This document shows, piece after piece, positions 2,853 through 17,794 of a DNA stretch of 32,000 nucleotides; the first letter of the stretch is position 1, and every line of letters starts with the position of its first letter. The DNA lies in NCBI GenBank assembly GCA_047651235.1, contig CP178758.1, positions 3,300,001 to 3,332,000 on the forward strand, written 5' to 3'. Made by a program: the position numbers and the translations under genes. The notes under the pieces were generated by a model. It did no database searches. It was given only the letters and a program-made list of their open reading frames with translations, and was not told the origin of the DNA. Origin of the DNA: Candidatus Electrothrix yaqonensis (GTDB lineage Bacteria; Desulfobacterota; Desulfobulbia; Desulfobulbales; Desulfobulbaceae).

Positions 2853-3269
2853 TTACTGGGAAAATTTTACGTTGAGTTGACTTGCAACGACTACACTACC
2901 TAGTGGCATATTGGCATTACTGCCATTATGACCTGTGATGGATAAAAGACGGATGCATCTACTCCCTTGGGCCTTAACCTTGGCGCTTCCTTTTTTAAAC
3001 GCTATCTTTCCCATATTCATGCCGGACATAACGCCTTTATTAACTCCGGCTTCATCTCCCATGGAGCGAGAAATATAAGATTTTACAGTGACGGCCTGCT
3101 TACCGGAGAATTTTACCTTTCTAGACGTTTTCTTGGCCTGATTCACCATGCCGCTATTAGGATACGGTGTCGGAACAGGGGGTGCTGGAGGAGCGGGAGT
3201 CAGACAGACATCCGGTGCGCCCAGACAGTTTCCCCCACCTTTTGTAGATGCTGGAAATATTGCTACCAT
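2853..3269 (-). CDS. DUF4150 (PAAR-like) T6SS spike-tip protein, stand-alone 138 aa
   Basis: The motif series matches what I recall for DUF4150: PDVCLTPAPPAPPVPTPYPN, then KVKFSGKQAV, then SRSMGDEAGVNKGVMSG, then a C-terminal GHNGSNAN. It is the last gene of the vgrG1 cassette. Confidence 0.8.
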   Translation of the reverse strand: MVAIFPASTKGGGNCLGAPDVCLTPAPPAPPVPTPYPNSGMVNQAKKTSRKVKFSGKQAVTVKSYISRSMGDEAGVNKGVMSGMNMGKIAFKKGSAKVKAQGSRCIRLLSITGHNGSNANMPLGSVVVASQLNVKFSQ

Positions 3270-3300: not shown

Positions 3301-4152
3301 TTACCCCAGGTTAATCTCTTCAGCTTTCACCTTGAAATCTTCTTCGGCTTTTAATACGGTATCCTTGCTCTTAATGTGGCAGGTTGATTTGATCAGCATC
3401 TTCAGCCTGCCGGTTTTAAGCTGAGAGAGGTTTTCAACTGACTGATACATATCCTGTGCTTTATGGATAAGTGTTTTTGCCTTTGTTTCAATCTTGCTTA
3501 TATTGAGCGTTGCCTGCACCAGATTCGTCAGTACTTTTTTTCCTGTTATTTTCAACTGATCTATAAATAAATTTCCATTCTTTGCTGTCACGTGCAAATT
3601 GGGACAGTTCAGCTTAGTTTGGTAATTTCCCAACGACAGTGTTGAGAGAGAACCTTTGCTATAATCCTGCACCTTCATATTGATCTTATCTTTTCCTGTA
3701 AAATCAATTGAATTGCTTTGGAAGGTTATAGATTCCGGAGAATTAAATTCCATATTGCCGGTAAGAGAACTCACTGTAGTTGTATCTTTTCCTGTATCAT
3801 ATTCAATAATAAGTTTATTATGTGGAGAGAAAATCTGCAGGGATGTCCTGTCATTATCAAGGCGAGCATAGGCACCGTTATCTGCGCGTATTGTTGCGAA
3901 CGCTTTTGCTGACAATACTCCAATGATATAGATACTGCGTATATCCTCACCGGCAATAAGCACCTTATCCCCACAGCTCAAATCAATATCATAAGGCAGG
4001 GCCAGAGCGGCATCTATCGCCTGTATCTCCGGCAGGGTGTCAATATGTATTTTTGCGGTTCTTTTTTCCCGGTCAAAAGAAACTATTTCTGCTTCCTGGG
4101 CAGAGAAACGCTTTGTGTAGTCTACAGGATAAAGTGAAGCAATTTTTGTCAT
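3301..4152 (-). CDS. DUF3540-like protein of the vgrG/DUF2169/pentapeptide cassette (family call is largely context-based)
   Basis: The ORF-track start at 4257 would overlap the upstream gene by 91 nt. The ATG at 4152 follows GGGAGA and lies 14 nt after the upstream stop. The 283-aa protein is beta-rich with a C-terminal helical tail. It sits in the slot DUF3540 occupies in cassettes I know of: vgrG, DUF2169, pentapeptide, DUF3540, DUF4150. Confidence 0.55.
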   Translation of the reverse strand: MTKIASLYPVDYTKRFSAQEAEIVSFDREKRTAKIHIDTLPEIQAIDAALALPYDIDLSCGDKVLIAGEDIRSIYIIGVLSAKAFATIRADNGAYARLDNDRTSLQIFSPHNKLIIEYDTGKDTTTVSSLTGNMEFNSPESITFQSNSIDFTGKDKINMKVQDYSKGSLSTLSLGNYQTKLNCPNLHVTAKNGNLFIDQLKITGKKVLTNLVQATLNISKIETKAKTLIHKAQDMYQSVENLSQLKTGRLKMLIKSTCHIKSKDTVLKAEEDFKVKAEEINLG

Positions 4153-4166
4153 ATCTAATCTCCCGC

Positions 4167-5999
4167 TTAGATTGAAGAACGAGGCGGCTTCCAGTTTTCC
4201 GCAGCAGCAAGGTCTTTGTCTGTTGTCTCCACAAGCACTCTGGATGCTCCTTTCCAATCAGTACCGACCTCCCTGGTGCGGTGCATAACCGATTGAAGAA
4301 GATTTGCCCCTGCCATATCACAATTCTGCAGGTTTGCGTGGGACAAATCGCTATACAGCATCCGGGTCTGCGAAAAATTTGAGCCACGGCAATCCGCATA
4401 ATTAAATTCAGCCCGCTCCAGATTTGCACCGGAAAAATCGGTTTTTCGCGCATTGGTATGGAGAAAACAGGAGCAAGGTAAAGTTGCCCCTTTAAAATCT
4501 GCGGCATCAAGAACAGCTTCCGTAAAATCAGCTGTATCGCAGAATGCACCCTGCAGGGTGCTGTTTCGTAAATCAGCTTTAAAGAAATCTGCCTGGTTGA
4601 GAACTGCCCGATTTAATATAGTATTCTGCATCTTGGCCGAGGTGAAGTCAGCATCCGTGAAATCACATCCGGTAAGGTCCATGCCGCTGAAGTTACACTC
4701 TGCCAACTTGCACAGGACAAATTTCGTCTGCTTTATTTTTGTTTGGGTAAAATCAACTCCCGGAAGATCAGTGCGCTCAAGTGAGGCATGGGTCAAATCA
4801 ACCTGCTCCATATTACACTGCTTCATATCACAATACTGCAGGCTTGCTTCAGTAAAATTTGCACCAACCAGCTCACTTTTTGCAAGATCTGTGTTATCCA
4901 GCAAGGCCTTGCTGAAATCAACTCCTTTCAGATTTGCTCCGGAAAAATCAGCGTCCGTCAAATTACATCGGCAAAACTTTGCTCCCTGAAGTTCAGTATC
5001 AGAAAAATTTGCGTCACAGAGGGCCTGACCGCTGAAATCCAGCTGCGGCATAAATGATTTGTGAAATGAAACTTCAATAAATTGAGCGTCTTTTATTTTG
5101 GCGTTCTTAAAATTGGAATTATTGAAAGTACATTCGGAAAACTGCATTTCGGAAAGATTCTGCCCGTACAAGTCACAGTCCTCAAAAACACAACCTGTCA
5201 GTTGAGCAGGAAACGACTCCTTAAACGAGGTGAAAATAGTATGGTGAAATTCGGTTTGTTCAAGGACGGCTGTTCTGCAATCAACATCTGTAAAATTCAC
5301 TTCCTTAAATGTTGTCTCATGCAGATTAACTTCTGAAAAAACAGCATTACTTAAATTGGTTGTTTCAAATAACGTGTTATCAAGGAGACCCTTTGTAAAC
5401 GTAGCTGCCGACAGCGAACAGTCCTCAAATCGAGCCCGTTCAAGGATTGATTCCTGAAAGAGCACTTCATCCAGTTCTGCTTCCATGAACATGGCCCCTT
5501 TGAGATTTGCCTGACTGAAATCCGTACTGCAGAGCCGCATTTTTCCCTTGGAAAAACCGACGATCCCTTGTTCTCTCAGGACGTTCTGCGTATCTTCATC
5601 AAGCTCAAAGGTATCAAACTCAAAGAGAACTTTTTCCTGATCCTTTTCCGGAACATTATCGACAAGGAAAAGAGCATCTGCAAGATCTGCACGGGTAAAA
5701 TTGGCCTGACAGCAATCTGCATTGACAAAGATTGTTCCGGCAAGTTTCGCCTCGGTGAAATCAACGCCGGACATAATGCAGTTATTGAAAACAACATTAT
5801 TCAACGTTGCCCCGCGCAGGTCTGTATTTGTCAAATGAACCGCATTAAAAGTGACAGTGTCAAACGTTGCGCCCTGTAAATCAAGACCGCTTAAATCAAT
5901 TTCATTCAGCAGGGTATTTTCTATTGCCGAACCGGCCCGAACCGCCTCAACGACATCATCAGAGGTCAGGAACCCCTTCATGTCTTCAATAGTAGCCAT
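4167..5999 (-). CDS. Pentapeptide-repeat protein (610 aa)
   Basis: Almost the whole length is A(D/N)LxX-type pentapeptide repeats, e.g. LSGLDLQGATFDTVTFNAVHLTNTDLRGATLNNVVFNNCIMSGVDFTEAKLAG. One non-repeat insert occurs near residues 115-160. The start overlaps the upstream stop by 14 nt. Confidence 0.9.
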   Translation of the reverse strand: MATIEDMKGFLTSDDVVEAVRAGSAIENTLLNEIDLSGLDLQGATFDTVTFNAVHLTNTDLRGATLNNVVFNNCIMSGVDFTEAKLAGTIFVNADCCQANFTRADLADALFLVDNVPEKDQEKVLFEFDTFELDEDTQNVLREQGIVGFSKGKMRLCSTDFSQANLKGAMFMEAELDEVLFQESILERARFEDCSLSAATFTKGLLDNTLFETTNLSNAVFSEVNLHETTFKEVNFTDVDCRTAVLEQTEFHHTIFTSFKESFPAQLTGCVFEDCDLYGQNLSEMQFSECTFNNSNFKNAKIKDAQFIEVSFHKSFMPQLDFSGQALCDANFSDTELQGAKFCRCNLTDADFSGANLKGVDFSKALLDNTDLAKSELVGANFTEASLQYCDMKQCNMEQVDLTHASLERTDLPGVDFTQTKIKQTKFVLCKLAECNFSGMDLTGCDFTDADFTSAKMQNTILNRAVLNQADFFKADLRNSTLQGAFCDTADFTEAVLDAADFKGATLPCSCFLHTNARKTDFSGANLERAEFNYADCRGSNFSQTRMLYSDLSHANLQNCDMAGANLLQSVMHRTREVGTDWKGASRVLVETTDKDLAAAENWKPPRSSI

Positions 6000-8010
6000 T
6001 TGTAAGTTTGGTCATTTTTAAATTTGCAGATTTAAAGATGGTTCCCTCTAGCTGACTTCCCAGAAATTCCGTCCCGTAAAGATTGGAGCCGGTAAAGTCA
6101 GTCTGCATTAAATTGGCATTTTCAAAACTGGATTCAAACAGATTCATGCTGATACAACGTGCTGCCTGCAGATTTGCTTTGGCGAATTTGGCTTGTTTCA
6201 TGTCTGCGGCGAGAAAGTTCACCCCTTTAAGTATTGCAGAAGAAAAATCAGCCGCCGCCATATCTGAGCAAGAAAAATCAGCTCCGGTTAATTCCGCCTC
6301 TTCCCATGTGGAATCATTACCGATCACCCGCGTAAAATTTCCTTCAGGAAAACAACACTTCTTCGAAGCACGCAATTCGGTGAGATCGCACTCTCTCATG
6401 CTGAGTTGTTCTCCTTGGGCAGCATCCAAAGTTGCTTCTTTAAGGCTTGCCTTATGGAAATCCGCCTTATGCAGGAGCGTATTTGAAAAGTCAGCGCCAT
6501 CCAATATTGCGTTTTTCAGGCTGGCTCCCGACAAATCTGCTTCAGAGAAGTATCCGTCCACAGCCTGTGCATTATCCAGGACAGCCTCCGTCATTCTTGC
6601 TTGTTCAAAAATCGTATCTTGAAGGACAGCCTCACTCAAATCAGCACCGTTCAGACATGCTGAAGTAAAGTCTGCTTCACAGGCATCTACCTTTTTTAAT
6701 GAGGCCCCGGTCAAGTCAGCTTGGGCAAAATTCGCTTCAGTTAGGATAGCTTCATCAAGGAGGGCATTTCTGAGGTTCACCTTGGAAAAAACAGCCTCCC
6801 TGAAGTCCCCGCCGCGAAGATCCAAATCAGAGAGGTCAAGACCGGAAAAATCTTCTTCAGCAAAGAATTCATTATTGGCCAGTCGTTCGAGAATTTTTTC
6901 ACGGGTCAGGGCTTCTTCTTCAGTGACTTTATCAAGTCCGTATTTGGCCAGAATGCGGGCCTCCATTTCTTTGTCTTCCTGACTCGGCTCCGGGATATCC
7001 TGTACAGGTTCAAGACCTGCTTCTTTCAACTCTTTCTCTAATTCTTCCTGGGCTTTTTTAACTTCCAGTTCCGCCTTCTGTATTTCTTCTTCAATGGAAA
7101 TGGTCGGTTCTTCTTCTACGCTTTCTGTTTCCGGGAATTCCTCTTCAAAAGGAGCGTCTTCCGCAGCAAGGGCAGCCCAAAAATCTTTTCGGCAATCTTC
7201 TATTGAACGGGGAGATTCATCCAGCTGTTCAGATACAATAAAAAGCCCTGTAACCTCCTCGTAGTCTTCCGACCGCACTTCGGTGACCCCGCGCCAGACA
7301 AGAACGAGTTTTTCCGCCTCCATATCAACCCAGAGGGTATCCAGATTCATTTTTACTTCAGCAAACTCGGTTTCATCTTGGTCTGTTGAAGCAAGCCTAT
7401 CCGTAAAGCACCGGACCCGCAAGCCGGGCAGTTGCGTTTGATAGACCGGGATTTCAGGATGCAGGTTTGTGCAAATAATCGGTTCGTCACCTCTGAGATA
7501 GCCGCTGACCTGCATGTTTTTCGGGGCAGCGTTATAATACTCCCAGCTGAAATCAAGCGGGAACCAAGGCCAGCGTTCTTTCAGCCAGTTGTTCTCATAG
7601 GTTCCAAGTTTGGAAGAACGTTGCGGCCCCATTTTATTCAGAGGGCCGAAGCCTGCCGGTTCACCGTCAGCGGAAAGCTGATGTGTTGTCCGTTTAGTGC
7701 CGACCTGAAAGGTTGCGGTACGGGTTGCCAGAGGAGTCCCTTGTGGCGGATGGCATTTGCCGATAAGCAGTAAATCCGCTTTGGGTTTGTAATAGGCAAA
7801 GTCGGATTCGTAGCGGACGTTCTGCTGTTGTTCATCATCCGGGTAGAACTCATCGCCGGTGGGGTAGAGTTGTTCTTCTGAAATAGTGGCTGTCTCCCCG
7901 TGTTTCAGGTCAAAAGTGCCTTTGATGATCAGGGTAAGTGTATGACCCGGAAAACTCATCCTGCCCACGAACGGGGCGATGGTGAATCCGGTTTTATTTA
8001 AAAATTCCAC
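5986..8010 (-). CDS. DUF2169 domain protein fused to an acidic coiled-coil linker and a C-terminal pentapeptide-repeat domain
   Basis: The N-terminus (NKTGFTIAPFVGRMSFPGHTLTLIIKGTFDL...LYPTGDEFYPDDEQ...YESDFAYYKPKADLLLIGKCHPP) matches the DUF2169 pattern I recall. A Glu-rich helical linker follows (EEEIQKAELEVKKAQEELEKELKEAG). About 290 aa of pentapeptide repeats complete the protein. The start is a GTG 15 nt after the vgrG1 stop. Confidence 0.8.
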   Translation of the reverse strand: MEFLNKTGFTIAPFVGRMSFPGHTLTLIIKGTFDLKHGETATISEEQLYPTGDEFYPDDEQQQNVRYESDFAYYKPKADLLLIGKCHPPQGTPLATRTATFQVGTKRTTHQLSADGEPAGFGPLNKMGPQRSSKLGTYENNWLKERWPWFPLDFSWEYYNAAPKNMQVSGYLRGDEPIICTNLHPEIPVYQTQLPGLRVRCFTDRLASTDQDETEFAEVKMNLDTLWVDMEAEKLVLVWRGVTEVRSEDYEEVTGLFIVSEQLDESPRSIEDCRKDFWAALAAEDAPFEEEFPETESVEEEPTISIEEEIQKAELEVKKAQEELEKELKEAGLEPVQDIPEPSQEDKEMEARILAKYGLDKVTEEEALTREKILERLANNEFFAEEDFSGLDLSDLDLRGGDFREAVFSKVNLRNALLDEAILTEANFAQADLTGASLKKVDACEADFTSACLNGADLSEAVLQDTIFEQARMTEAVLDNAQAVDGYFSEADLSGASLKNAILDGADFSNTLLHKADFHKASLKEATLDAAQGEQLSMRECDLTELRASKKCCFPEGNFTRVIGNDSTWEEAELTGADFSCSDMAAADFSSAILKGVNFLAADMKQAKFAKANLQAARCISMNLFESSFENANLMQTDFTGSNLYGTEFLGSQLEGTIFKSANLKMTKLTNGYY

Positions 8011-8025
8011 TTCTATTCAGGACGG

Positions 8026-10275
8026 TTAGTCTCTTGACGAGTTTTTATCCTTAGCGGTACCTTTTACTTCTAAATCTTTTTTTGCCAGTACCTTTTTGTT
8101 AGCAATTAAGTTTCCATCTATCACTACGTCAGGAGCTTGCAAGACAATTTTGGTGTCGGCTTTAATGGTAATAATTGTCCCTCCCTTCAAGTCAAGAGTA
8201 GTAAATGTCTCTAATTCGTAATTCCCTATTTCTTCTTTTTTCTCCCCTAAATATTTTGAAAGTTTTTCAGAACCTATCTTTATCTCCTTAACTTTAGTAC
8301 GTGTGTGTTTTATCCCGGCAGTTACTTCACTGGTGGCAGCAAGATTTTGGGTTGCTTTCAGTCCGACAAAAAGTTCTTGTGTAGCAGCAAGTTGCTGAGT
8401 CGATTTTGCTGCCACACAAACTTCATGACTAGCTCCAACTTTCATTTCACTTTTGGGCCCGTCAACCTTGCACCACGAATTACCTTTTACTGATTTTTTT
8501 TCTGCACCAATAACCGTCACAGTCCTGTCAGCGTTAACACGAAGTTCCTGATTGCGTACAACCGTGTCCTGATCACCAGTAACCTTTATCCCTTGATTAC
8601 CCCCTACAACTTGCTCATCATCGCCGGTAATCTCCAATTTGCTATCACCGCCAATATTAGTTGTATTATTAGCACCGATTTTTGACACCCAAGTACCATC
8701 GGATCTTAAGAATATATTCCCCTCATTCACATCACCTAAAGATATAATAGAATTGCTCGTCGGCGAAGACATATGAATCTGCTGCCCCCCTTCACCATCC
8801 TCAATCCGAATCTGATTTCCGCCTCCGGTCCGTATCACACTCTGCGTCTGATTACCTGAAGTTACAGGAGTTTTCGTCTCCGGGTTCGGCACGGCCCCCG
8901 CAATAATCGGTCGGTCAGGATCACCGTCGATAAAGGTCAACAGCACCTCGCCTCCCTTATGCTGAGGAAAATGCATGCCGTAATCCGCACCGCTATAAGG
9001 CTGCATCATCCGGCACCAGGCCGAAGCCTTGCCGCTGCCGCGCCCGCTGCGGTCAAAAGGCAGAATAACCTTGTACCGTCCTTGATCATCCAGTTCGGCA
9101 TATTTGCCGCTGGTGGCCGCATCTATCTTCGCATTGATGGTTCCGGATATCTTCGGCTTCACCGCAGTCCGTTCCGGCCTGAATTGGGCATCTGAATAAA
9201 TAGCCGTAAAGGTGTTGGCATAAAACATCTGCTCATCCCTGGGTTGCAGCGCTGCCGTTACCCCGGAAATGAGAAAGCCGGTCTGATGCCCTTCATGATT
9301 GACATCAGTGATCAGGTATTTTCGGTTGTATAGCTTCTGGTAATGCTCCTGGAGGTCAAAGGTAAAGCCGGGCACGATAAACGGCACCGAACTTTTGCCG
9401 AAGAAGAGAGATTTGCGACAGAGCAGCTCTTCTGCCCGAATTCCGGCCAACCGGTTTCCCTCTTCCGGGGTGGGAAAATGTTCGCCGTAGATATAGTTTT
9501 CCCCCCGACCGTCCGGATCAACCTCTGCTGAACCTTCCATGGCCAACGATGGTTTACGGTAATTATAGTCCTTCAGAAAAACCCTCTGCGGCAACAGACT
9601 GTGTTTGCAGAGGAATTCTTTGATAACCTCTTTGGTGTGCAGAGAATCCAGACCGGACTGAGGCGAGTAAATCAGATCCTTGCCAAGGACAAGGTCGGTC
9701 TGGGAAATGTTGGTGTCCGTGAAAACAACTTTTTCCCCCTGTTTGGTCTGCTCAAAGAAATAATAAATCCCTTCCCGTTCCGCCCACCTGGCGACAAAGT
9801 TCAGATGGGATTCACCATACTGGCAGATATACTCAAACGGCTGATAGTCATTCTGCAGCCTGAACTCAAAATCTATTCCGCTGACCAGATCACCGTCTTT
9901 CAGAGCTGCCTCCATAATTTCCGGGGCTGTCTGATCAAGAAAAACCTGATTATGATGGGTCAGGGAAAGCCACTGGAGCTTGGGCGCCAAAACGGCCTTG
10001 AAAAAAAGATACCCGTTGAACTCCTGGGTCTCTTCAAACTGGATCAGAATGCCGTTGAAGATCACGTCCTGTTCATTGTCCCGATGAATGGTGAACACCG
10101 CAGGATTTTGCAGCACCTGCAAAGGGTCAATATTCTTTTTTTCCGAGACCAAGACGATCTCAAACTGGTAGGGTATGGAGACTGCCTCAAAGCCCTTGAA
10201 ACTGACCACGGCAAAGCTGTCTTTATCTGTTGCTTTGGAGGTAAAAGAGAATTTCTTTTTGGTTAACAGGGCCAT
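8026..10275 (-). CDS. vgrG: T6SS spike protein VgrG (TssI), canonical length (749 aa)
   Basis: The gp27-like N-terminus reads FSFTSKATDKDSFAVVSFKGFEAVSIPYQFEIVLVS...LSLTHHNQVFLDQTAPEIMEAALKD. The gp5 OB-fold core reads GTINAKIDAATSGKYAELDDQGRYKVILPFDRSG...ASAWCRMMQPYSGADYGMHFPQHKGGEVLLTFIDGDPDRPIIAGAVPNPE. A beta-helical C-terminus follows. A strong SD is present (AGGAGGAAAACCAAATG). Confidence 0.92.
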   Translation of the reverse strand: MALLTKKKFSFTSKATDKDSFAVVSFKGFEAVSIPYQFEIVLVSEKKNIDPLQVLQNPAVFTIHRDNEQDVIFNGILIQFEETQEFNGYLFFKAVLAPKLQWLSLTHHNQVFLDQTAPEIMEAALKDGDLVSGIDFEFRLQNDYQPFEYICQYGESHLNFVARWAEREGIYYFFEQTKQGEKVVFTDTNISQTDLVLGKDLIYSPQSGLDSLHTKEVIKEFLCKHSLLPQRVFLKDYNYRKPSLAMEGSAEVDPDGRGENYIYGEHFPTPEEGNRLAGIRAEELLCRKSLFFGKSSVPFIVPGFTFDLQEHYQKLYNRKYLITDVNHEGHQTGFLISGVTAALQPRDEQMFYANTFTAIYSDAQFRPERTAVKPKISGTINAKIDAATSGKYAELDDQGRYKVILPFDRSGRGSGKASAWCRMMQPYSGADYGMHFPQHKGGEVLLTFIDGDPDRPIIAGAVPNPETKTPVTSGNQTQSVIRTGGGNQIRIEDGEGGQQIHMSSPTSNSIISLGDVNEGNIFLRSDGTWVSKIGANNTTNIGGDSKLEITGDDEQVVGGNQGIKVTGDQDTVVRNQELRVNADRTVTVIGAEKKSVKGNSWCKVDGPKSEMKVGASHEVCVAAKSTQQLAATQELFVGLKATQNLAATSEVTAGIKHTRTKVKEIKIGSEKLSKYLGEKKEEIGNYELETFTTLDLKGGTIITIKADTKIVLQAPDVVIDGNLIANKKVLAKKDLEVKGTAKDKNSSRD

Positions 10276-10512
10276 TTGGTTTTCCTCCTTTTGGATTCCG
10301 ACAAATTCGCCTTCAGGTCAGTGCGGCGGCACCGGTGGTCATTTTTTCAGAGAGCTTCCCGCCCACCTCTGCAAATGACAACCACTTAATAGACCGAGAT
10401 AGCACATCCTCCTACCTTGTGTCAATATGTAATTATTTTGTACGAGCTGTTGAACAGTCTTCTTCCCCGGCAAATTCGGTCTCCGGTCCATCTTCATAGC
10501 CTTCCTTTGATA

Positions 10513-11280
10513 TCAGACCGAAACCACATGCATTTCTACCTCATCACCCTCGGCAGCAGGCCCGAACAGAAAACCGGACGGTACGCCGTCCACTTTGACA
10601 AAATAGGAGGACTCCCTGTCCAGTCTGTTGGCAACGGCCCAGCCCGTGTATTCGGTCTCGCCGAGACGGAGCTGCATCCCCTGGATGGGATATTCAAGTA
10701 TGCATTTCTGCGGCAGAGTCCCGGCGGGGCCGACACCGTGTGCTACGATATTTCCGCCGGTTACGGCAAACATCGCCCCAGGCCACTCCTGCTCCCCGAC
10801 CGGGCCGACCTCAAACCAGGTACCGAATCCCGGATTGGCATGAACGCCTAAGCGGTACTCGGCTGATAAAGGCTTTGCCGCTGTGTTTGCCCCGGCTGCC
10901 AGTTTGGCCCCGAGCAGGCTGCTCTTCGAGCCGATCAGGGGCACATCGGCAAAAACACCAGGCAGCGCGTCCGGACTGAACTGATTATCGGTATCAACCC
11001 AGAGAATGGAGAGGTCCGGCCGTTCGGCTCGAATGCTCAGGCAGAGCAGGGTGAGGCCGTACCGGGTCTCCGGGAGCAGATCTTCTGCGCCGCCTGCAAT
11101 GACCCAGAGGGCAATGGCCTTATTCCGGAGTGTGTCCCGTACAGCTGTCCAGGCCATATTTTTCAGGTCGTCGGTCCAGAAATGGCCGTCAGCATTCAGG
11201 CCGTACTGCGCGGCGATACCGGTTATTGTGGCAGCAGATACCTGCTCTTTGGCCAAAGCTGTCATCCATATATTTTTCAT
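10513..11280 (-). CDS. Hypothetical protein (255 aa), translationally coupled to vgrG2; no family recognised
   Basis: The ATG lies 9 nt after the vgrG2 stop, and the SD AGGAGAG overlaps that stop. Amino-acid composition is ordinary, with no signal peptide or TM segment. The N-terminal ~125 aa alternate hydrophobic strands and amphipathic helices, suggesting an alpha/beta fold. The C-terminal ~120 aa are Gly/Val-rich and beta-like. Confidence 0.7.
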   Translation of the reverse strand: MKNIWMTALAKEQVSAATITGIAAQYGLNADGHFWTDDLKNMAWTAVRDTLRNKAIALWVIAGGAEDLLPETRYGLTLLCLSIRAERPDLSILWVDTDNQFSPDALPGVFADVPLIGSKSSLLGAKLAAGANTAAKPLSAEYRLGVHANPGFGTWFEVGPVGEQEWPGAMFAVTGGNIVAHGVGPAGTLPQKCILEYPIQGMQLRLGETEYTGWAVANRLDRESSYFVKVDGVPSGFLFGPAAEGDEVEMHVVSV

Positions 11281-11289
11281 TGTTCTCTC

Positions 11290-14061
11290 CTAACCAAGAA
11301 TGATTTTTGAGCCGCTGTCCACCTGCAGATTTCCTTCCTCAGCCCCCTGGATCTGAATCTGTCCGGAGAGCTTGATTTCGCCGTTGCTGATGGTGATCTG
11401 CGCATCACCGGACTGGATGGTTACAGTTCCCTGCTTCAGTTCAACAGCCGCCAGAGCGCCGCCCGAACCTTCTTCGCTGCTGTCCGTTTCCGTGGTCTGC
11501 GTCTCGCCGCCAGAGGTATCTGTGGTTTCCTCACCGCCCCCTCCCCCACCGGAGAGCAGGCGGATATAATTATCAGCCCCTTCGCCGCTGAGCATCTCAA
11601 TGTTGCCCTGGGAAAGCTGGGCAGTGGCCATAATGCTGCCCGCATCTCCCTTTTCGCCGGAGATCAGCCAAATGGAGCGGGGCACGCCATCTTCCCCGGC
11701 CCCGTTGCCGCTCCGCATGACAAGATCGCCCTGCAGCAGCTCCAGCATGGCCTGGGCATCGCTCTCGTCTCCCTTAAAGCCGGAAACCAGTTTGATAAAG
11801 TTCTTGCCGTCTTCAACCGGGGGTTCGTTGCCGGAAGGCTCTATCGCTCCGGCTTCTCCCCCTTCCTCTTCGGCCTCCTCAGGCTCTGCTGCCTCTTCCT
11901 CTGTCTCGTCACCTTCCTCCTCTTCTTCCTCCTGCGGCTTGCTGCCTAGGTTGCCGCTGGTGATGGTGATATTGCCTTGGGCAAGCTCCATCAAGGCCCT
12001 GGTATCGGTTTCCTCATTACTCAGGCCTGAACCGAGCAGAATATGATTTTCCTCTTCTGTCCCGCTTTCCAGCTCGATGTTGATGCCTTCCGCATAGATA
12101 TCTCCGGGTTCGGTCTTGAGATAAATATGCTTGCCTGCGGCCTTGTTGCGGACCAGGGTTTCCCCTTCTTTGGAGTAGACCAGATAGGCGGATTCACCGG
12201 CTTTGCCCTCAGCCCCCATTTCCTTGACTGTCAGGGCGATGAAATAGAGTTCCACCAGAATTTCTACGACCGAGGAAACCGCCGTGACCAGATCCACCTC
12301 GTTCTGAATAACATTCGGATCCGCATCAGTATAGGCCCGATCATAATTTTCCATGATCTTGGGTGCCCGGAGCATAAATTTCTGCAGGACCTTCATGATC
12401 AGGCCGAATTTCCAGCCGGTGATGGAGGTATCCTGAATAGCGGCAAAAGTATAATTGGCCATCAGGCTGCCGATCACCGACATGGCGGTGCCGCCCATGA
12501 ACAGGTTGGAGGACCAGGCCGCCACAGAGGAATCCGACCCCGCGCCGATGCGCAGGCCGGAATGATCATCCCCGGCCTTGAACATAATATGCTGATGTCC
12601 GGGCCGGTCATCACTGTAAAAACTGCTGCCCCCGGCGGTCTGAAATCCGGAGCGGTCCTGGTTGCCTGCCTCGACCACACTGCGGGTCTCCGGATTGGGC
12701 ACGGCACCGGTGATGATCGGCCGGTCCGGATTGCCGTCAACAAAGGTGAGCAGCACCTCGCTGCCCTTGCGCAAAGGAAAATGCATACCGTAGTTCGGCC
12801 CGGTAAACGGCTGCATCATCCGCAGCCAGGCCGAGGCTTTGCCGCCTGCACGAGTGGAAATATCAAAGGGCAGGACAACCTTGTACCGTCCCTGCTCATC
12901 CAGCTCGGCATATTCCCCGGAACCCTGCGCATCAACACGGGCATTGATGGTGCCGGAAAAACTGGGCCTCGGCGTTGTCCGCTTGGGACGGAACTGAACA
13001 TCCGACGGAATGGCTGTAAAACTGTTGCTGTACCAGCTTTCTCCGCTCAGTTCAGGGTCCTGGGAATCCTCGCCCTGGCGGCCATGATGTTCGATATCGA
13101 CACAGAGATAATGCCGGTTGAGATCCTGGCGGAAATGGCTGCTCAATGAAAACAGGAAACCGGGCTGCATCCCCACAGCTGTGCTCTCTCCCTGAAAGAG
13201 CTGTTCCTGCCAGCGCTGCTCTTCCGCCCGGATCGCGGCCAGCCGCTGCCCCTGTTCATGCGACTGAAAATGGTCGCCGTAATGATAGACATTCCCGAAG
13301 CCGTTTTCCGAGATTTGTGCCTCGCCCGACATTTCCAGACTCGGTTTGCGGTAGTTGTAATCGCGCAGCCGGACTGAACCCGGCACCAGAGAATGGACCT
13401 TGTTGAACTTTTGAACAGATTTTGTTTTTGAAATGCCGTCCAGACCGGTATCCGGAACGTAAATAAACTGACCGCCGTTTTTCGGTGCCTCATGGCTGAC
13501 GAGGGTATCGGTGACTACCAGACGGTCACGACCGGAACCATGCTCAAAAAAGGTGTAGATCCCGTTCTGCTCCATGCGGCGGGCCATAAAATTATAATGG
13601 CTTTCCCGATACTGGCAGACATACTCACGCGGTTCATATTCGCTCTGGAGCCGAAAATCAAAATCTGCCGGGGTCAGGTCGCCGTCCCGAAGAACCGTAT
13701 CGATAATCTGGGGAATGGTGCGGTTGAGAAAAACCTGGTTATGCTCAATCAGGGTCAGCCGCCAGCAGAGAGGAACCAGCCGCGCCTGATAGAGAAAGCG
13801 TTTGCCCACAGGATGCTCCAGGGTGCAGCGGGAAAGAATGCCGTGATACTGCAGGTCACCGGCCTCTTTGCCCCGGATGGTCAGGGTGGCGCCATGACGC
13901 AGGAGTTCGGCCAGATCAATATCCGGGCTTTCCGCCAGCAGGGCAATATCAAAGCGGAACAGGGAAGAAAGCGCCTCGACACCGTCAAAGCGGACAACCG
14001 TAAAGGTCTCCGCGTCCAGGGCATCGCTCTGAAAGGTGAAAAGTTGTTTCGGCTTGGCCAT
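11290..14061 (-). CDS. vgrG: Extended ('evolved') VgrG, 923 aa, with an unassigned ~460-aa C-terminal region
   Basis: Residues 1-460 are collinear with VgrG1, e.g. GTINARVDAQGSGEYAELDEQGRYKVVLPFD...ASAWLRMMQPFTGPNYGMHFPLRKGSEVLLTFVDGNPDRPIITGAVPNPE. The remainder consists of a hydrophobic block, a poly-acidic tract, four 31-aa repeats and a beta-strand-like tail. Confidence 0.9.
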   Translation of the reverse strand: MAKPKQLFTFQSDALDAETFTVVRFDGVEALSSLFRFDIALLAESPDIDLAELLRHGATLTIRGKEAGDLQYHGILSRCTLEHPVGKRFLYQARLVPLCWRLTLIEHNQVFLNRTIPQIIDTVLRDGDLTPADFDFRLQSEYEPREYVCQYRESHYNFMARRMEQNGIYTFFEHGSGRDRLVVTDTLVSHEAPKNGGQFIYVPDTGLDGISKTKSVQKFNKVHSLVPGSVRLRDYNYRKPSLEMSGEAQISENGFGNVYHYGDHFQSHEQGQRLAAIRAEEQRWQEQLFQGESTAVGMQPGFLFSLSSHFRQDLNRHYLCVDIEHHGRQGEDSQDPELSGESWYSNSFTAIPSDVQFRPKRTTPRPSFSGTINARVDAQGSGEYAELDEQGRYKVVLPFDISTRAGGKASAWLRMMQPFTGPNYGMHFPLRKGSEVLLTFVDGNPDRPIITGAVPNPETRSVVEAGNQDRSGFQTAGGSSFYSDDRPGHQHIMFKAGDDHSGLRIGAGSDSSVAAWSSNLFMGGTAMSVIGSLMANYTFAAIQDTSITGWKFGLIMKVLQKFMLRAPKIMENYDRAYTDADPNVIQNEVDLVTAVSSVVEILVELYFIALTVKEMGAEGKAGESAYLVYSKEGETLVRNKAAGKHIYLKTEPGDIYAEGINIELESGTEEENHILLGSGLSNEETDTRALMELAQGNITITSGNLGSKPQEEEEEEGDETEEEAAEPEEAEEEGGEAGAIEPSGNEPPVEDGKNFIKLVSGFKGDESDAQAMLELLQGDLVMRSGNGAGEDGVPRSIWLISGEKGDAGSIMATAQLSQGNIEMLSGEGADNYIRLLSGGGGGGEETTDTSGGETQTTETDSSEEGSGGALAAVELKQGTVTIQSGDAQITISNGEIKLSGQIQIQGAEEGNLQVDSGSKIILG
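11407..12045 (-). repeat. Four protein-level repeats inside the VgrG2 C-terminal region
   Basis: The units are listed below; pairwise identity counted by hand is 13-14 of 31 positions.
- nt 11953-12045: HILLGSGLSNEETDTRALMELAQGNITITSG
- nt 11707-11799: FIKLVSGFKGDESDAQAMLELLQGDLVMRSG
- nt 11584-11676: SIWLISGEKGDAGSIMATAQLSQGNIEMLSG
- nt 11407-11568: YIRLLSG-[G/E/T/S-rich loop]-ALAAVELKQGTVTIQSG. Confidence 0.75.
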
Positions 14062-14442
14062 GATTCTTGTATTTTCCTGTTATTAAACAATAAATCTATA
14101 TAACTGTCGCATCCTGTGTGATAAGTATACCCATGAGAAGCCAGCCTTTGTTTTTGGCACGCGAACGGATAATCACTCTCCTATAAGAACATAAACTGTC
14201 CGGTTTATCATCATGAAATATTATACTGCACAAAAGAGCGCAGACCGCTCCGGCTGTCCATCGGAAAATTCAGCGCTCAGATCTGTCTGAATGCAAGTCG
14301 GTGAAAATGATGTCTGATGATTCTTTCGGCAATTATTAGAGCAAGCCCTGCAGCATTGTGCAGACGTATCCCTGGCTTTTTGAGAAGGCTCTGTTTTATT
14401 ACCTACACATACTTTATTCAATATGTTAAGAAGGCAGTATGA

Positions 14443-14618
14443 AAGCCGGGTTCCGGGGTCATCGGCCTGAACGAGGCGGCCGCCCGCAGGGGGCATGTGG
14501 TGACCTGATCATCATTGTCAGTTATGCGCAATATGAGGAAAGCGAGCTGGAGGGCTTTGCGCCCAAAATTATTCTTTGCGATGAGAAAAATGGGATACGG
14601 AAGTTGATTGATAAATAG
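14443..14618 (+). pseudogene. panD: 3' remnant of aspartate 1-decarboxylase (panD) with a frameshift; N-terminal part missing or unrecognisable
   Basis: One frame reads [19 protein letters not shown] (14443-14499). After a 1-nt frame change, [39 protein letters not shown] follows (stop at 14616-14618). Joined, this parallels the PanD C-terminus I recall from B. subtilis ([53 protein letters not shown]). A TGA sits directly upstream of KPGSG (14440-14442). No convincing pro-enzyme Gly-Ser cleavage region is found further upstream. Confidence 0.6.
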
Positions 14619-14629
14619 AGCGGAGATAC

Positions 14630-15295
14630 ATGGAAAATAGAATAAACGAATCATTAGATACATCGTTAACTCGTTCAGTAGCAACTCAGTCACTCGCTGA
14701 TGTTTTGAGTGCCGTCTCTGAAATTACAATAGATACCACCTTGGAGTCCGGTGTCTTACGTGACATACCAGTAATAGGGATGGTAATCGGAGTTCTGAAG
14801 GCTGGTAGCGATATTAAAGCAACTTTATTTTTGCGAAAAGTAGCGATTTTCTTGAAAACCTTATCCGAAATATCAGATGAGAAACGTAAAGAATTCGTTG
14901 ATAACATGAAAACTCCAGAGCAAAAACATAAATTCGGTGAGGCTATCCTTTTACTGCTCGAACGGGCTGAGGATATGACAAAGCCGAAACTAATTGCGAA
15001 AATAATTAATGCTTATATTTTAGAGCATATTGAGGAGGCAACTGCGTTTAGAATTTGCTCAATGATAGATCGTTGCTATGTCCAAGATCTTGAGCTGTTA
15101 AAAAACTTTAGTGATGGTACACAAGGTGACGATACACCTATAGCTGAGACTTTGCTATCAGTTGGATTTTTGTCTAATGGCGGTATTGATGGCGGTTCTT
15201 GGGGCGAAGAGGAGGATGAGGACAGCGGCGGTGTTATTTATAATATGAACGAATATGGAAAAATGTTTGTTAACTATGCGTTGAGTAACGACTAA
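14630..15295 (+). CDS. Hypothetical protein (221 aa), AT-rich orphan gene; family not recognised
   Basis: The ATG follows GGAG and lies 12 nt after the panD remnant stop. The protein is predicted helical with an acidic Gly-rich C-terminus (GGIDGGSWGEEEDEDSGG). The DNA is visibly more AT-rich than the downstream gene: hand counts give 19/60 and 23/60 G+C in lines 15001 and 14641, against 34/60 in line 15421. Confidence 0.75.
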   Translation: MENRINESLDTSLTRSVATQSLADVLSAVSEITIDTTLESGVLRDIPVIGMVIGVLKAGSDIKATLFLRKVAIFLKTLSEISDEKRKEFVDNMKTPEQKHKFGEAILLLLERAEDMTKPKLIAKIINAYILEHIEEATAFRICSMIDRCYVQDLELLKNFSDGTQGDDTPIAETLLSVGFLSNGGIDGGSWGEEEDEDSGGVIYNMNEYGKMFVNYALSND

Positions 15296-16540: not shown

Positions 16541-17794
16541 ATGTCGGATTCCGTCAGGGTGATTGCCCGAAAATTTTGCGGTTTCGGTAGGGACATGGCG
16601 CACCGTGTCCCTCCTTATGCGGAGAAGGGCGTTCTCCTTTTTTGCGGCCTCTGCCTCCTTGCCGTATCAGCTGCTGCCGGTTCTGCCTCCGATAAAGACA
16701 TCAGGAAATTCTGTGCTCCCGGGAGCGGGCAGCAGAAACAGCCCCTGTACCTCTTCCTCACCTCCGATATCAACTCCCAGCAGTCCGTTTTTGCGAGAAA
16801 TACAACCCTGCAGAACGGGCAGATACTCTTCAGCAGGAAGGCAGGAGACAGCCTTTTTCATACTGCACAAATAGCACCGGGTGATTGTGTGCTGGTGAAT
16901 ACCCAGGAAACTCTCCGGCTTGAGGCTGTTGAGGTTTCCTCTGAACAGGGTGATTCCGGTCTGCAGCGGAGGCCGCAGCAGACAACCTTTCTGCCTGCGG
17001 TCTTTTTTGTCCGGAAAAATTCATCAAAACACTACGGCCTGATTGAGGAAAAGGTGCTGCTCCGCCTGACTCTGTCCGCAATGGATCGGGAGACCGCGAC
17101 AGAGGACATTCTTAACTATGCTGCAGACAGGGATCTTGTCCTGCTGTATATCACCTGTCCGGCGGACCGCAACGACCTCTGTGACCTTACCATTAAGCAG
17201 AATGGCGCTTGGCTGATTGACAGGAAAACAGGTCGGAAGTTCAGCATGAAGGTGCTGGCCCGCGCCCGAAAAAACGGATCAGGCAGCAGCCGGAGAATCA
17301 GCATCAACAGTGATACGCCCCAGGGAATCTATACCGTCTGGGGCACGGTGACGGGCGGCGGAGCCGGGCAGTGGTCCCGGACAGCACGCATTGACCTTGA
17401 TGCGGCCCTGCCTCCGATCAACGCGCAGCCGTACACCATCAACTCGTTTCTGCTTTCCCGCATCATCCCGGACAAGGCCCTGGATGACTACTGGGTCAAT
17501 GAATGGCCCCTGGCCTATAGCCTCGGCCGTATTGCTCTGCGTATCGCTCCCGGTGATTTTGAGGTACAGCAGGCGAACACAAACCGGCTTGCTTTTGACA
17601 GCATACCGTACAACCCGACGCACGGCTGTATCAACACCGGTGATCAGCAGAACAGGCTGCTGCAGGCTCTTGTCCGGGCCGGGGGCTTTGCCGAAGATGA
17701 TGTTTCTGGTTATACAGGAGGAACCGGACAGAAAAAATGGTCTGTTGCGCCGAAATTGGGTAAGGTATTTGTGATCCTGAAGGATCGGGACTGA
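16541..17794 (+). CDS. Predicted secreted protein with a C-terminal L,D-transpeptidase(YkuD)-like Cys motif
   Basis: An alternative start at 16595 gives a signal-peptide-like N-terminus (MAHRVPPYAEKGVLLFCGLCLLAVSAAAGSASD). The C-terminal part contains TPQGIYTVWG and NPTHGCINTGDQQNRLL, resembling the TPxGxY and (S/T)HGC(I/V) motifs of YkuD domains. I cannot locate the usual upstream catalytic His. Confidence 0.7.
   Translation: MSDSVRVIARKFCGFGRDMAHRVPPYAEKGVLLFCGLCLLAVSAAAGSASDKDIRKFCAPGSGQQKQPLYLFLTSDINSQQSVFARNTTLQNGQILFSRKAGDSLFHTAQIAPGDCVLVNTQETLRLEAVEVSSEQGDSGLQRRPQQTTFLPAVFFVRKNSSKHYGLIEEKVLLRLTLSAMDRETATEDILNYAADRDLVLLYITCPADRNDLCDLTIKQNGAWLIDRKTGRKFSMKVLARARKNGSGSSRRISINSDTPQGIYTVWGTVTGGGAGQWSRTARIDLDAALPPINAQPYTINSFLLSRIIPDKALDDYWVNEWPLAYSLGRIALRIAPGDFEVQQANTNRLAFDSIPYNPTHGCINTGDQQNRLLQALVRAGGFAEDDVSGYTGGTGQKKWSVAPKLGKVFVILKDRD

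What the first reader, a model, noticed from the sequence alone, without database searches (positions are those of the whole stretch)
11290..12684. VgrG2 carries a ~460-aa C-terminal region I cannot assign to any effector family
Up to about residue 460 (…FVDGNPDRPIITGAVPNPETRS), VgrG2 is collinear with the canonical VgrG1 next door (…FIDGDPDRPIIAGAVPNPETKT). Where VgrG1 continues as ordinary beta-helix, VgrG2 carries four unusual elements:
- A ~100-aa hydrophobic or amphipathic block (SSVAAWSSNLFMGGTAMSVIGSLMANYTFAAI … VDLVTAVSSVVEILVELYFIALTV; nt 12232-12531).
- A poly-acidic tract (QEEEEEEGDETEEEAAEPEEAEEEGGE; nt 11851-11937).
- Four copies of a 31-aa module.
- A beta-strand-like tail (GTVTIQSGDAQITISNGEIKLSGQIQIQG).

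Known evolved VgrGs carry recognisable enzymatic C-terminal domains, such as actin cross-linking, peptidoglycan hydrolase or metallopeptidase domains. I see none of those signatures here. I infer either a membrane-active or pore-forming spike extension, or a novel interrupted beta-helix that presents acidic loops. No PAAR gene accompanies this vgrG.
Basis: partly seen in the sequence, partly recalled or inferred. Interest (0 to 1): 0.75.

Follow-up and report, generated by a model that had tools for sequence, protein, structure and literature searches.

The report
Cable-bacterium VgrG spike with orphan extension
One of two type VI secretion spike proteins in this cable-bacterium (Candidatus Electrothrix) window has, after its normal core, about 420 residues found only in that genus: a strongly conserved hydrophobic helical block followed by repeated beta-strand modules with floppy acidic loops. 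It is real and under selection, but its function is unproven.

Summary
VgrG2 (window 11290-14061, minus strand, 923 aa) is a canonical VgrG to about residue 500-510. The remaining ~420 aa match no Pfam, NCBIfam, PHROG or PDB family. All four described elements are present, and the 31-aa module repeat is statistically real.

The region is a genus-level orphan. An exhaustive phmmer search of residues 490-710 against 1.84 billion representatives found one cluster. Every relative is from Ca. Electrothrix, always fused to a VgrG core.

Anatomy: a ~105-aa helical hydrophobic/amphipathic block (511-614) sits near the base of the spike. About 22 short Gly-terminated beta strands follow (615-923), interrupted by two variable acidic loops. 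The helical block is as constrained as the VgrG core (dN/dS 0.03-0.05). The distal strands and loops evolve faster.

- A PAAR-like (DUF4150) gene is present, and the island is a Class III Tvp-type spike system.
- The downstream 255-aa gene is a widespread Desulfobacterota T6SS-cluster protein. It is neither a dedicated partner nor an evident immunity protein.
- The block's hydrophobicity is marginal and no higher than in ordinary VgrG tails.

Best reading: an extended, loop-decorated beta-prism carrying a conserved internal helical insertion. Membrane activity is possible but unsupported. This is a new variant of a known kind, of moderate interest.

The parts
11290..14061 (-). vgrG2, 923 aa: the whole spike gene
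   Evidence: ORF. TIGR03361 matches residues 8-500 at E 2.5e-108. PDB VgrG chains match residues 17-476.
12532..14061 (-). Canonical VgrG core, residues 1-510: gp27-like domain, gp5 OB-fold and the first beta-prism strands, ending at ...GLRIGAGSD
   Evidence: Pfam Phage_GPD 29-329 and Phage_base_V 388-453. 46% identity to VgrG1. The 'RIGAGS' strand is shared with other Desulfobacterota VgrGs, which diverge right after it.
12220..12531 (-). Helical hydrophobic/amphipathic block, residues 511-614. H1 is rich in small residues (511-543), H2 is a cationic amphipathic helix (549-576, muH 0.42), and H3 is hydrophobic with an acidic stripe (582-614).
   Evidence: The AF2 model assigns helices at 514-614, but pLDDT is only 24-43. 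Identity to the full-length orthologues is 92-93%. dN/dS is 0.026-0.053 at dS 0.8-1.4. There are no homologues outside one cluster. Hydropathy is marginal.
12049..12219 (-). Beta-strand segment, residues 615-671 (SAYLVYS, TLVRNKA, HIYLKTE, INIELESG)
   Evidence: AF2 strands at pLDDT about 50. 67-79% identity to orthologues.
11944..12048 (-). Repeat module 1, residues 672-706 (HILLGSG / loop / LMELAQG / NITITSG)
   Evidence: Module alignment and shuffle test. HMM self-hits.
11803..11943 (-). Long acidic loop, residues 707-753 (22 D/E in 47 aa)
   Evidence: Composition. AF2 assigns no secondary structure and pLDDT is below 50. Identity to orthologues is 34-70%, with length changes.
11572..11802 (-). 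Repeat modules 2 and 3, residues 754-830
   Evidence: AF2 strands at pLDDT 50-63.
11401..11571 (-). Repeat module 4, residues 831-887, split by a Gly/acidic/Thr-rich loop (841-868)
   Evidence: The loop is 0-32% identical to orthologues and is deleted in E. aestuarii.
11293..11400 (-). Terminal beta strands and presumed spike tip, residues 888-923 (QITISNG, IKLSG, IQIQG, LQVDSG, KIILG)
   Evidence: Weak Pfam PF21930 beta-helical trimerization hit over 872-909. AF2 strands at pLDDT 58-66.
10513..11280 (-). 255-aa gene, 9 nt downstream and probably translationally coupled. It belongs to a conserved Desulfobacterota T6SS-cluster family and is not specific to this extension.
   Evidence: It follows the VgrG2 orthologue in all 8 loci with sequence there. 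The family has 156 or more proteins and 326 metagenome loci. Contexts are shown. The AF2 model has pLDDT 92.7. Foldseek finds a TIR/flavodoxin-like N-domain.
8026..10275 (-). vgrG1, 749 aa, canonical, with a Gp5_trimer_C beta-prism
5986..8010 (-). TvpAB-like protein (DUF2169 plus pentapeptide repeats)
   Evidence: Pfam. Class III Tvp definition in PMC13373197.
4167..5999 (-). TvpB-like pentapeptide-repeat protein
   Evidence: Pfam.
3301..4257 (-). TvpC-like protein (DUF3540)
   Evidence: Pfam.
2853..3269 (-). PAAR-like tip protein (Tox-PAAR-like / DUF4150)
   Evidence: Pfam E 4.6e-33. Gene call.

Best explanation
VgrG2 is a Candidatus Electrothrix-specific specialised T6SS spike protein.

Shown:
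- Residues 1-510 are a normal VgrG core.
- Residues 511-614 are a domain found only in this genus, under purifying selection as strong as the core.
- Residues 615-923 are built from short alternating-hydrophobic strands ending in Gly. These include four copies of a three-strand module, with two long acidic low-complexity loops that vary freely in sequence and length.
- The gene sits in a Class III Tvp-type island (DUF2169-pentapeptide, pentapeptide, DUF3540, DUF4150 PAAR-like).

Inferred:
- Residues 615-923 continue the trimeric beta-prism of the spike. About 22 strands would give roughly 100 Angstrom. One module would equal one turn of a chain around the prism, so the acidic loops would project outward in three rows.
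- The tip would be capped by the PAAR-like protein with help from the Tvp proteins. VgrGs of Class III Tvp systems tend to have long prisms, up to 186 Angstrom in S. marcescens VgrG1.
- The block at 511-614 is a three- or four-helix insertion near the base of the prism. Topologically this is where phage T4 gp5 carries its lysozyme domain, not a terminal effector domain.
- It is the only candidate functional payload.

The most likely role of the block is a non-enzymatic, tightly packed helical bundle riding on the spike. It would serve either as a docking or stabilising collar or as a membrane-interacting element exposed after firing. I lean slightly to the structural/docking role, because no immunity gene is evident and the hydrophobicity is ordinary.
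For: - Canonical core.
- Orphan status: exhaustive phmmer of residues 490-710 gave one representative. Word-indexed searches of 488-923, and of the loop-free beta part as a profile, returned only Electrothrix proteins. Plasmid and phage collections gave no match.
- Always fused to a VgrG core.
- Selection: dN/dS for the helical block is 0.026-0.053 at dS 0.8-1.4, equal to the core. The distal beta part has dN 2-8 times higher, and the loops are 0-70% identical with indels.
- Beta-module repeat.
- Secondary structure: AF2 gives helices at 514-614, then strands with unstructured acidic loops.
- Weak beta-helical trimerization Pfam hit at 872-909. Non-significant Foldseek hits are nearly all beta-helices, plus the R2 pyocin spike.
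- Tvp/PAAR context: and the paper PMC13373197.
Against: - The only structure model is poor: mean pLDDT 40.6 from 5 near-identical sequences, as a monomer. The helix bundle, its placement and the continuity of the prism are unverified.
- No known beta-prism family (Gp5_trimer_C, DUF2345, T6SS_Vgr) scores on VgrG2, even at E <= 10.
- No significant similarity was found to the tails of VgrG1, TvpC or 20 other Desulfobacterota VgrGs.
- The function of the helical block is not tested by anything here.
- In this window there is only one Tvp/PAAR set, next to vgrG1. Whether VgrG2 uses it is assumed.
Confidence: 0.55

Rival explanations
1. Membrane-active effector. The helical block (511-614) is a toxin module carried by the spike. 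After firing it leaves the spike shaft and inserts into the target cell's membrane. H1 is rich in small residues and fusion-peptide-like, H2 is a cationic amphipathic helix, and H3 is a hydrophobic helix with two Glu. Insertion would depolarise or permeabilise the membrane. This would be a fused version of the VgrG1-dependent depolarising activity reported for the Class III Tvp VgrG1 of Serratia marcescens.
For: - The block has the strongest conservation in the extension, equal to the core.
- Three helices of about 30 aa: H2 has muH 0.42 with five basic residues on one face, and H3 has KD19 of 1.96.
- Precedent: a VgrG of the same Tvp class carries a membrane-depolarising activity without any recognisable effector domain (PMC13373197).
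- Precedent: the Burkholderia VgrG-5 C-terminal domain is needed for membrane fusion (PMC5626464).
Against: - Hydrophobicity is marginal. The Wimley-White octanol minimum is -3.0 kcal/mol, no better than a segment of the soluble core, and the Hessa free energy is +3.7 or higher.
- Ordinary VgrG tails reach the same values.
- No immunity-like gene is evident. The only conserved neighbour has no Pfam, NCBIfam or PHROGs family match, no signal peptide by my reading of its N-terminus, and occurs widely without this extension. No conserved small ORF lies in the flanks.
- The block is internal, so release would need unfolding or cleavage.
Confidence: 0.25
2. Cargo or adaptor dock. The lineage-specific extension (helical collar plus acidic loops) is a binding platform. 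It would select a separate effector or the Tvp/PAAR-like proteins for this spike, in the way the variable C-termini of other VgrGs determine cargo specificity. The acidic loops would recruit a basic partner.
For: - VgrG2 orthologues are flanked by their own DUF3540 and PAAR-like genes in L004, L005 and L011.
- In Class III complexes the TvpAB helices clamp the prism through hydrophobic contacts (PMC13373197).
- By my reading of its translation, the PAAR-like protein is Lys-rich.
Against: - No partner is identified.
- The loops vary freely in length and sequence, and one is deleted in E. aestuarii. That argues against a specific binding site in them.
- The 255-aa neighbour is not specific to this extension.
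Confidence: 0.15
3. Decaying or neutral appendage. The extension would be low-complexity expansion without function, or a mis-assembled or chimeric ORF.
For: - The acidic loops behave neutrally.
- A panD fragment and a low-GC stretch just upstream suggest local rearrangement.
Against: - The ORF is intact in six or more independent assemblies, including a closed genome.
- dN/dS is 0.03-0.15 across all ordered parts despite near-saturated dS.
Confidence: 0.03

Closest known systems
Serratia marcescens Db10 VgrG1 of the Class III Tvp system (Monlezun, Earl & Coulthurst, EMBO J 2026, PMC13373197)
   Same: - A VgrG in an island with DUF2169-pentapeptide (TvpAB), pentapeptide (TvpB), DUF3540 (TvpC) and a DUF4150 PAAR-like protein.
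- A C-terminal extension with no recognisable effector domain.
- The extension is proposed to be mainly an elongated beta-prism.
   Different: - The Serratia extension is about 144 aa and is predicted as uninterrupted prism. A transmembrane immunity protein (Vai1, DUF3192) is encoded just downstream.
- Here the extension is about 420 aa, contains a ~105-aa helical block and long acidic loops, and has no Vai1-like gene.
- I had no Serratia sequence, so sequence similarity could not be tested.
Phage T4 gp5 (OB-fold, lysozyme domain, beta-helix)
   Same: The order of parts is the same: OB-fold, then a non-prism globular insertion, then a long trimeric beta-helix ending in the tip. This is established knowledge of gp5, and the gp5 OB domain is detected here.
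   Different: - The insertion here is helical, hydrophobic and non-enzymatic by every search. No lysozyme or other Pfam hit was found.
- It follows the first prism strands rather than the OB-fold directly.
Evolved/specialised VgrGs with terminal effector domains (V. cholerae VgrG1-ACD and VgrG3, P. aeruginosa VgrG2b, Burkholderia VgrG-5)
   Same: A VgrG core with extra C-terminal sequence. The VgrG-5 C-terminal domain is likewise unassigned and linked to membranes (PMC5626464).
   Different: In those proteins the extra domain is terminal, after the prism, and mostly enzymatic. Here the candidate domain is internal, and the protein ends in ordinary spike-tip strands.
Other long VgrGs of Desulfobacterota T6SS clusters (for example L048, 939 aa, and E. 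aestuarii L005:14410-17166, 918 aa)
   Same: They share the core and the 'RIGAGS/RIGAPN' strand, then diverge into lineage-specific extensions. The L048 VgrG also has a hydrophobic Gly/Ala-rich insertion at this point, followed by beta strands.
   Different: No detectable homology beyond the shared strand.

Membership tests
VgrG / TssI (TIGR03361, TIGR01646) | gp27-like domain plus gp5 OB-fold, scoring above the curated cut-off | tested here: met
   TIGR03361 scores 362.9 bits against a cut-off of 186. Phage_GPD has E 1e-77 and Phage_base_V has E 1e-9. PDB VgrG chains match at E 7e-63.
Known VgrG beta-prism/extension families (Gp5_trimer_C PF22178, T6SS_Vgr PF13296, DUF2345) | A profile match in the post-OB region | tested here: not met
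   No such hit on VgrG2, even at E <= 10 on residues 490-650 and 651-923. VgrG1 next door does hit Gp5_trimer_C. The only VgrG2 hit is a sub-threshold PF21930 match (19.6 bits against 27).
Evolved VgrG with toxin domain | A recognisable enzymatic or toxin domain in the extension | tested here: not met
   Pfam, NCBIfam, PHROGs and PDB sequence searches are empty. The Foldseek search used a low-confidence model and gave nothing significant.
Evolved VgrG with toxin domain | A cognate immunity gene adjacent | tested here: not met
   The downstream gene has no Pfam, NCBIfam or PHROGs family match and, by my reading of its N-terminus, no signal peptide. Its family occurs in many clusters without this extension. 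The flanks hold no conserved small ORF.
Class III Tvp-associated VgrG (PMC13373197) | Linked TvpA(B) DUF2169-pentapeptide, TvpB pentapeptide, TvpC DUF3540 and DUF4150 PAAR-like genes | tested here: met
   All four are in the same gene string in the window. They also flank the orthologues in L004, L005 and L011.
Class III Tvp-associated VgrG (PMC13373197) | An unusually long continuous beta-prism whose tip binds the PAAR-like protein | tested here: inconclusive
   Strand repeats and AF2 strands support a prism. However, mean pLDDT is 40.6, no trimer or complex model could be built, and a helical block interrupts the prism.
Pore-forming / transmembrane T6SS toxins | Helices hydrophobic enough for membrane insertion | tested here: inconclusive
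   The best 19-aa windows have a Wimley-White octanol sum of -3.0 kcal/mol, a Hessa free energy of +3.7 and KD of 1.96, with two Glu in the best helix. Comparable values occur in the soluble core and in ordinary VgrG tails. No dedicated TM predictor was available.
Pore-forming / transmembrane T6SS toxins | Toxicity or membrane depolarisation on delivery | not testable with these tools
   Needs experiments.

The most novel reading that the evidence does not exclude
The invariant helical block is a non-enzymatic membrane-insertion or fusion module built into the shaft of a T6SS spike. It has a fusion-peptide-like helix rich in small residues, a cationic amphipathic helix, and a hydrophobic Glu-bearing helix, each present three times in the trimer. 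It would be kept inert inside the producer by packing against the prism and exposed on firing. This would make it a mechanical/physical toxin or fusogen specific to cable bacteria, needing no classical immunity gene.
Probability: 0.15. Interest if true: 0.75.

Novelty: new variant of a known kind. Interest (0 to 1): 0.42.

Why it matters
Most characterised specialised VgrGs carry a terminal enzymatic domain. This one has a strongly constrained, genus-restricted helical domain inserted inside the spike shaft. That would be a different way of decorating a T6SS spike, and the nearest analogue is the internal lysozyme domain of phage T4 gp5.

It belongs to the recently defined Class III Tvp spike systems. 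In that class, a VgrG-dependent membrane-depolarising activity has been reported with no recognisable effector domain. A natural variant with a discrete conserved insertion could help locate such an activity.

It also shows that cable bacteria carry elaborate, diversified T6SS spike islands, a feature of their biology that is little described. Against this, orphan VgrG extensions are common, and nothing here demonstrates a function.

Tried and rejected
- Scans of species-representative genomes (genome contigs) with the protein and with alignment A1 found nothing. The automatically chosen peptide patterns were poor, and both scans are now spent. Absence from that collection is therefore not informative.
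- AF2 on residues 441-923 with a 5-sequence alignment gave mean pLDDT 40.6. Foldseek with that model gave only non-significant beta-helix and pyocin-spike hits. I use the model only for secondary structure.
- I tested whether the VgrG2 tail is related to TvpC (DUF3540) tails, because both end in '...I(I/N)LG'. There was no significant similarity.
- I tested whether other long Desulfobacterota VgrGs, especially L048, are remote homologues. Only the shared pre-insertion strand aligns (E 2e-6). The remainder gave no domain hit better than i-Evalue 0.03 and no full-sequence E below 0.006 in a 22-sequence set.
- I considered the 255-aa neighbour as an immunity protein, a chaperone, or a TIR NADase effector. 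I rejected the dedicated-partner role because of its distribution. I rejected the NADase role because no acidic residue is invariant in its TIR-like domain, and the Foldseek TIR matches are only fold-level (TM 0.35-0.39).
- The promoter/terminator scan of 10200-14700 found no more sites than shuffles did.
- Plasmid and phage tblastn searches found no match.
- A literature search for T6SS in cable bacteria found nothing pertinent.
Full report
**1. What is there**

The ORF at window 11290-14061 (minus strand) encodes a 923-aa protein.

- Pfam finds Phage_GPD (residues 29-329, E 1e-77) and the gp5 OB domain Phage_base_V (388-453).
- NCBIfam TIGR03361 (TssI/VgrG) covers residues 8-500 at 363 bits.
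- Solved VgrG chains match residues 17-476.
- The neighbouring VgrG1 (8026-10275, 749 aa) is 46% identical and collinear to about residue 530. The alignment is weak after about 500.

**2. The region has no family**

- Residues 490-650 and 651-923 were scanned separately against Pfam at E <= 10. The only result is a sub-threshold hit, PF21930 'beta helical trimerization domain', at residues 872-909 (19.6 bits against a cut-off of 27).
- PHROGs, NCBIfam and PDB sequence searches are empty.
- VgrG1, in contrast, hits Gp5_trimer_C.

**3. It is a genus-level orphan**

- An exhaustive phmmer search of residues 490-710 against 1.84 billion cluster representatives returned one protein, P0005 (937 aa, 82% identical).
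- Word-indexed searches of residues 488-923, and of a profile of the beta part with the acidic loops removed, returned only Candidatus Electrothrix proteins or unlabelled close relatives.
- Plasmid and phage collections gave nothing.
- Orthologues with context are:
  - the window itself (a Logan assembly);
  - L004;
  - the closed genome of Ca. Electrothrix aestuarii, CP159373 (896 aa, 78% identical);
  - two metagenome contigs, L010 and L011.
- Wherever the N-terminus is present, the extension is fused to a VgrG core.

**4. Anatomy of the extension**

*(a) Residues 511-614.* The AF2 model, built from a 5-sequence alignment, has mean pLDDT 40.6. It is usable only for secondary structure. It makes helices at 514-522, 524-543, 549-576 and 582-614.

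- H1 is rich in small residues: SSVAAWSSNLFMGGTAMSVIGSLMANYTFAAI.
- H2 is amphipathic and cationic (muH 0.42).
- H3 is hydrophobic (KD19 1.96) but carries D590, E600 and E604.

*(b) Residues 615-923.* This part consists of short strands with alternating hydrophobic residues, ending in Gly.

- By my count on the sequence there are about 22 strands, for example HILLGSG, LMELAQG, NITITSG.
- They include four copies of a module made of three strands plus a loop.
- Pairwise module scores have z = 5.7-15.7, with 0 of 1000 shuffles reaching them.
- A family HMM of module 1 re-detects the other modules in orthologues.
- AF2 places strands here at pLDDT 50-66 and leaves the acidic stretches unstructured.

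*(c) Two long loops.* These are residues 707-753 (22 D/E in 47 aa) and 841-868.

**5. Selection**

| Region | Identity to L004 / E. aestuarii | dN/dS | Other |
|---|---|---|---|
| Helical block (511-614) | 92% / 93% | 0.053 / 0.026 | dS 0.8 / 1.4 |
| gp27-like core (1-360) | 91% / 86% | 0.055 / 0.042 | - |
| Distal beta modules | 89-50% | - | dN 2-8 times higher than the helical block |
| Acidic loops | 70-0% | - | indels; the second loop is absent in E. aestuarii |

Sources.

The helical block is therefore a real, tightly constrained domain, and the loops are close to neutral spacers.

**6. Is the block a membrane segment?**

The evidence is weak.

- The best 19-aa windows have Wimley-White octanol sums of -3.0 kcal/mol (residues 516-534) and -1.3 kcal/mol (591-609).
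- Segments inside the soluble core reach -2.5 and -2.0 kcal/mol.
- The Hessa apparent insertion free energies are +3.7 to +7 kcal/mol.
- In a panel of 22 VgrG tails from related clusters, several ordinary tails reach the same level. Examples are L087 (KD 1.87, Hessa 4.3) and L008 (Hessa 3.9).

Hydrophobicity alone therefore does not single out this block.

**7. Context**

The window's gene string runs, in order, on the minus strand:

| Gene | Coordinates | Identity |
|---|---|---|
| vgrG2 | 11290-14061 | this finding |
| 255-aa gene | 10513-11280 | conserved T6SS-cluster family |
| vgrG1 | 8026-10275 | canonical VgrG |
| DUF2169+pentapeptide | 5986-8010 | TvpAB-like |
| pentapeptide | 4167-5999 | TvpB-like |
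| DUF3540 | 3301-4257 | TvpC-like |
| Tox-PAAR-like/DUF4150 | 2853-3269 | PAAR-like tip |

Sources.

- This is the Class III Tvp arrangement defined in Serratia marcescens. There, TvpAB, TvpB, TvpC and Paar1 build the VgrG1-PAAR tip, and Class III VgrGs have unusually long beta-prisms (PMC13373197).
- In L004 and L005 a PAAR-like gene and a DUF3540 gene lie directly upstream of the VgrG2 orthologue. In L011 DUF2169-pentapeptide and DUF3540 genes lie upstream of it; PAAR was not probed there.
- In the window that upstream position is occupied by a low-GC stretch holding a panD fragment. This is probably a rearrangement scar.

**8. The downstream 255-aa gene**

- It follows the VgrG2 orthologue in all 8 loci where sequence is available.
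- The family is far broader: 156 or more proteins and 326 metagenome loci, from Syntrophales, Syntrophobacteria, Desulfovermiculus and others.
- In 46 loci of at least 8 kb, it sits in one of three places:
  - after ClpV and before a VgrG;
  - after a VgrG-DUF2169-pentapeptide(-DUF3540) string;
  - beside a 531-aa TssB/TssC-like protein.
- Only the Electrothrix loci have the VgrG2 extension.
- Its AF2 model is confident (pLDDT 92.7). It shows a flavodoxin/TIR-like alpha/beta domain plus a beta domain. Foldseek's best matches are the TIR-APAZ subunits of SPARTA (E 1e-4, TM 0.38) and the TcpB TIR domain.
- No acidic residue is invariant in the N-terminal domain, so a TIR NADase role is unlikely.
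- It has no Pfam, NCBIfam or PHROGs family match and, by my reading of its N-terminus, no signal peptide.

I conclude it is a general accessory protein of this T6SS type, not an immunity protein or chaperone dedicated to the extension.

**9. Explanation**

I think VgrG2 is best read as an extended beta-prism decorated with loops. It would be capped by the PAAR-like protein. It carries a conserved helical insertion close to its base.

- Topologically the insertion sits where T4 gp5 carries its lysozyme domain, rather than at the C-terminus as in classical evolved VgrGs.
- One 31-aa module has three strands. In a gp5-type intertwined prism that would be one turn of a chain, so the acidic loops of each chain would emerge along one edge. 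This is inference.
- The function of the helical block is open. I lean slightly toward a structural or docking bundle, because no immunity gene is evident, the hydrophobicity is ordinary and the position is internal.
- A membrane-active payload remains a serious rival at about 25%. The Serratia Class III VgrG1 carries a membrane-depolarising activity without a recognisable domain. Burkholderia VgrG-5 offers another membrane-linked precedent.

**10. Novelty and score**

Unassigned VgrG extensions are common. E. aestuarii itself has a second, unrelated one, and other Desulfobacterota VgrGs diverge at the same strand.

What is unusual here is the combination of three things:
- a strictly genus-restricted extension;
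- a helical domain, as constrained as the core, placed inside the prism;
- long neutral acidic loops.

This is a new variant of a known kind. Interest is moderate (0.42), limited by the lack of a confident structure or of any functional evidence.

Noticed in passing
window 10513-11280 (-); L008:10001-10780; 80 loci L010-L089: The 255-aa protein belongs to a widespread family with no Pfam match, tied to Desulfobacterota T6SS clusters. It has a confident two-domain model (pLDDT 92.7): a TIR/flavodoxin-like N-domain plus a beta domain. It may be an undescribed T6SS accessory component.
   Followed up: partly
L008:8291-9886 (and 20 of 46 long loci): A 531-aa protein hits the sheath domain VipB (E 1e-28) and weakly hits VipA. 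It looks like a TssB-TssC-like fusion, encoded in addition to the regular TssC, and often lies next to the 255-aa gene.
   Followed up: no
L005:14410-17166: Ca. Electrothrix aestuarii has a second long VgrG (918 aa). Its ~430-aa C-terminal region is unrelated to VgrG2's and equally unassignable. Two Y2_Tnp transposase genes lie near it, one upstream beyond hcp and one just downstream.
   Followed up: partly
L048, the VgrG ORF about 7.5 kb upstream of the 255-aa homologue: A 939-aa VgrG from an unrelated metagenome contig has a ~190-aa insertion at the same point, after the 'GSGSPSS' strand. The insertion contains two hydrophobic Gly/Ala-rich segments (KD19 2.0) and is followed by beta strands. 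The architecture is analogous, but there is no detectable homology.
   Followed up: partly
window 14100-14620: A low-GC (0.43) stretch directly upstream of vgrG2 holds a 59-aa aspartate decarboxylase (panD) fragment at 14439-14618 (+). In L004 and L005 this position holds PAAR-like and DUF3540 genes (DUF2169-pentapeptide and DUF3540 in L011), so this is probably a rearrangement scar.
   Followed up: no
L003:1956-2300: The 255-aa homologue after the VgrG2 orthologue on this ENA contig is cut to 114 aa by a frameshift near residue 95. This could be an assembly error or a pseudogene.
   Followed up: no
window 14630-15295 (+) and 16541-17794 (+): Two ORFs, of 221 aa and 417 aa, have no Pfam match. 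They flank a DegT-type aminotransferase and a cytidine-deaminase-like gene. The 221-aa product ends in an acidic Gly-rich tail.
   Followed up: no
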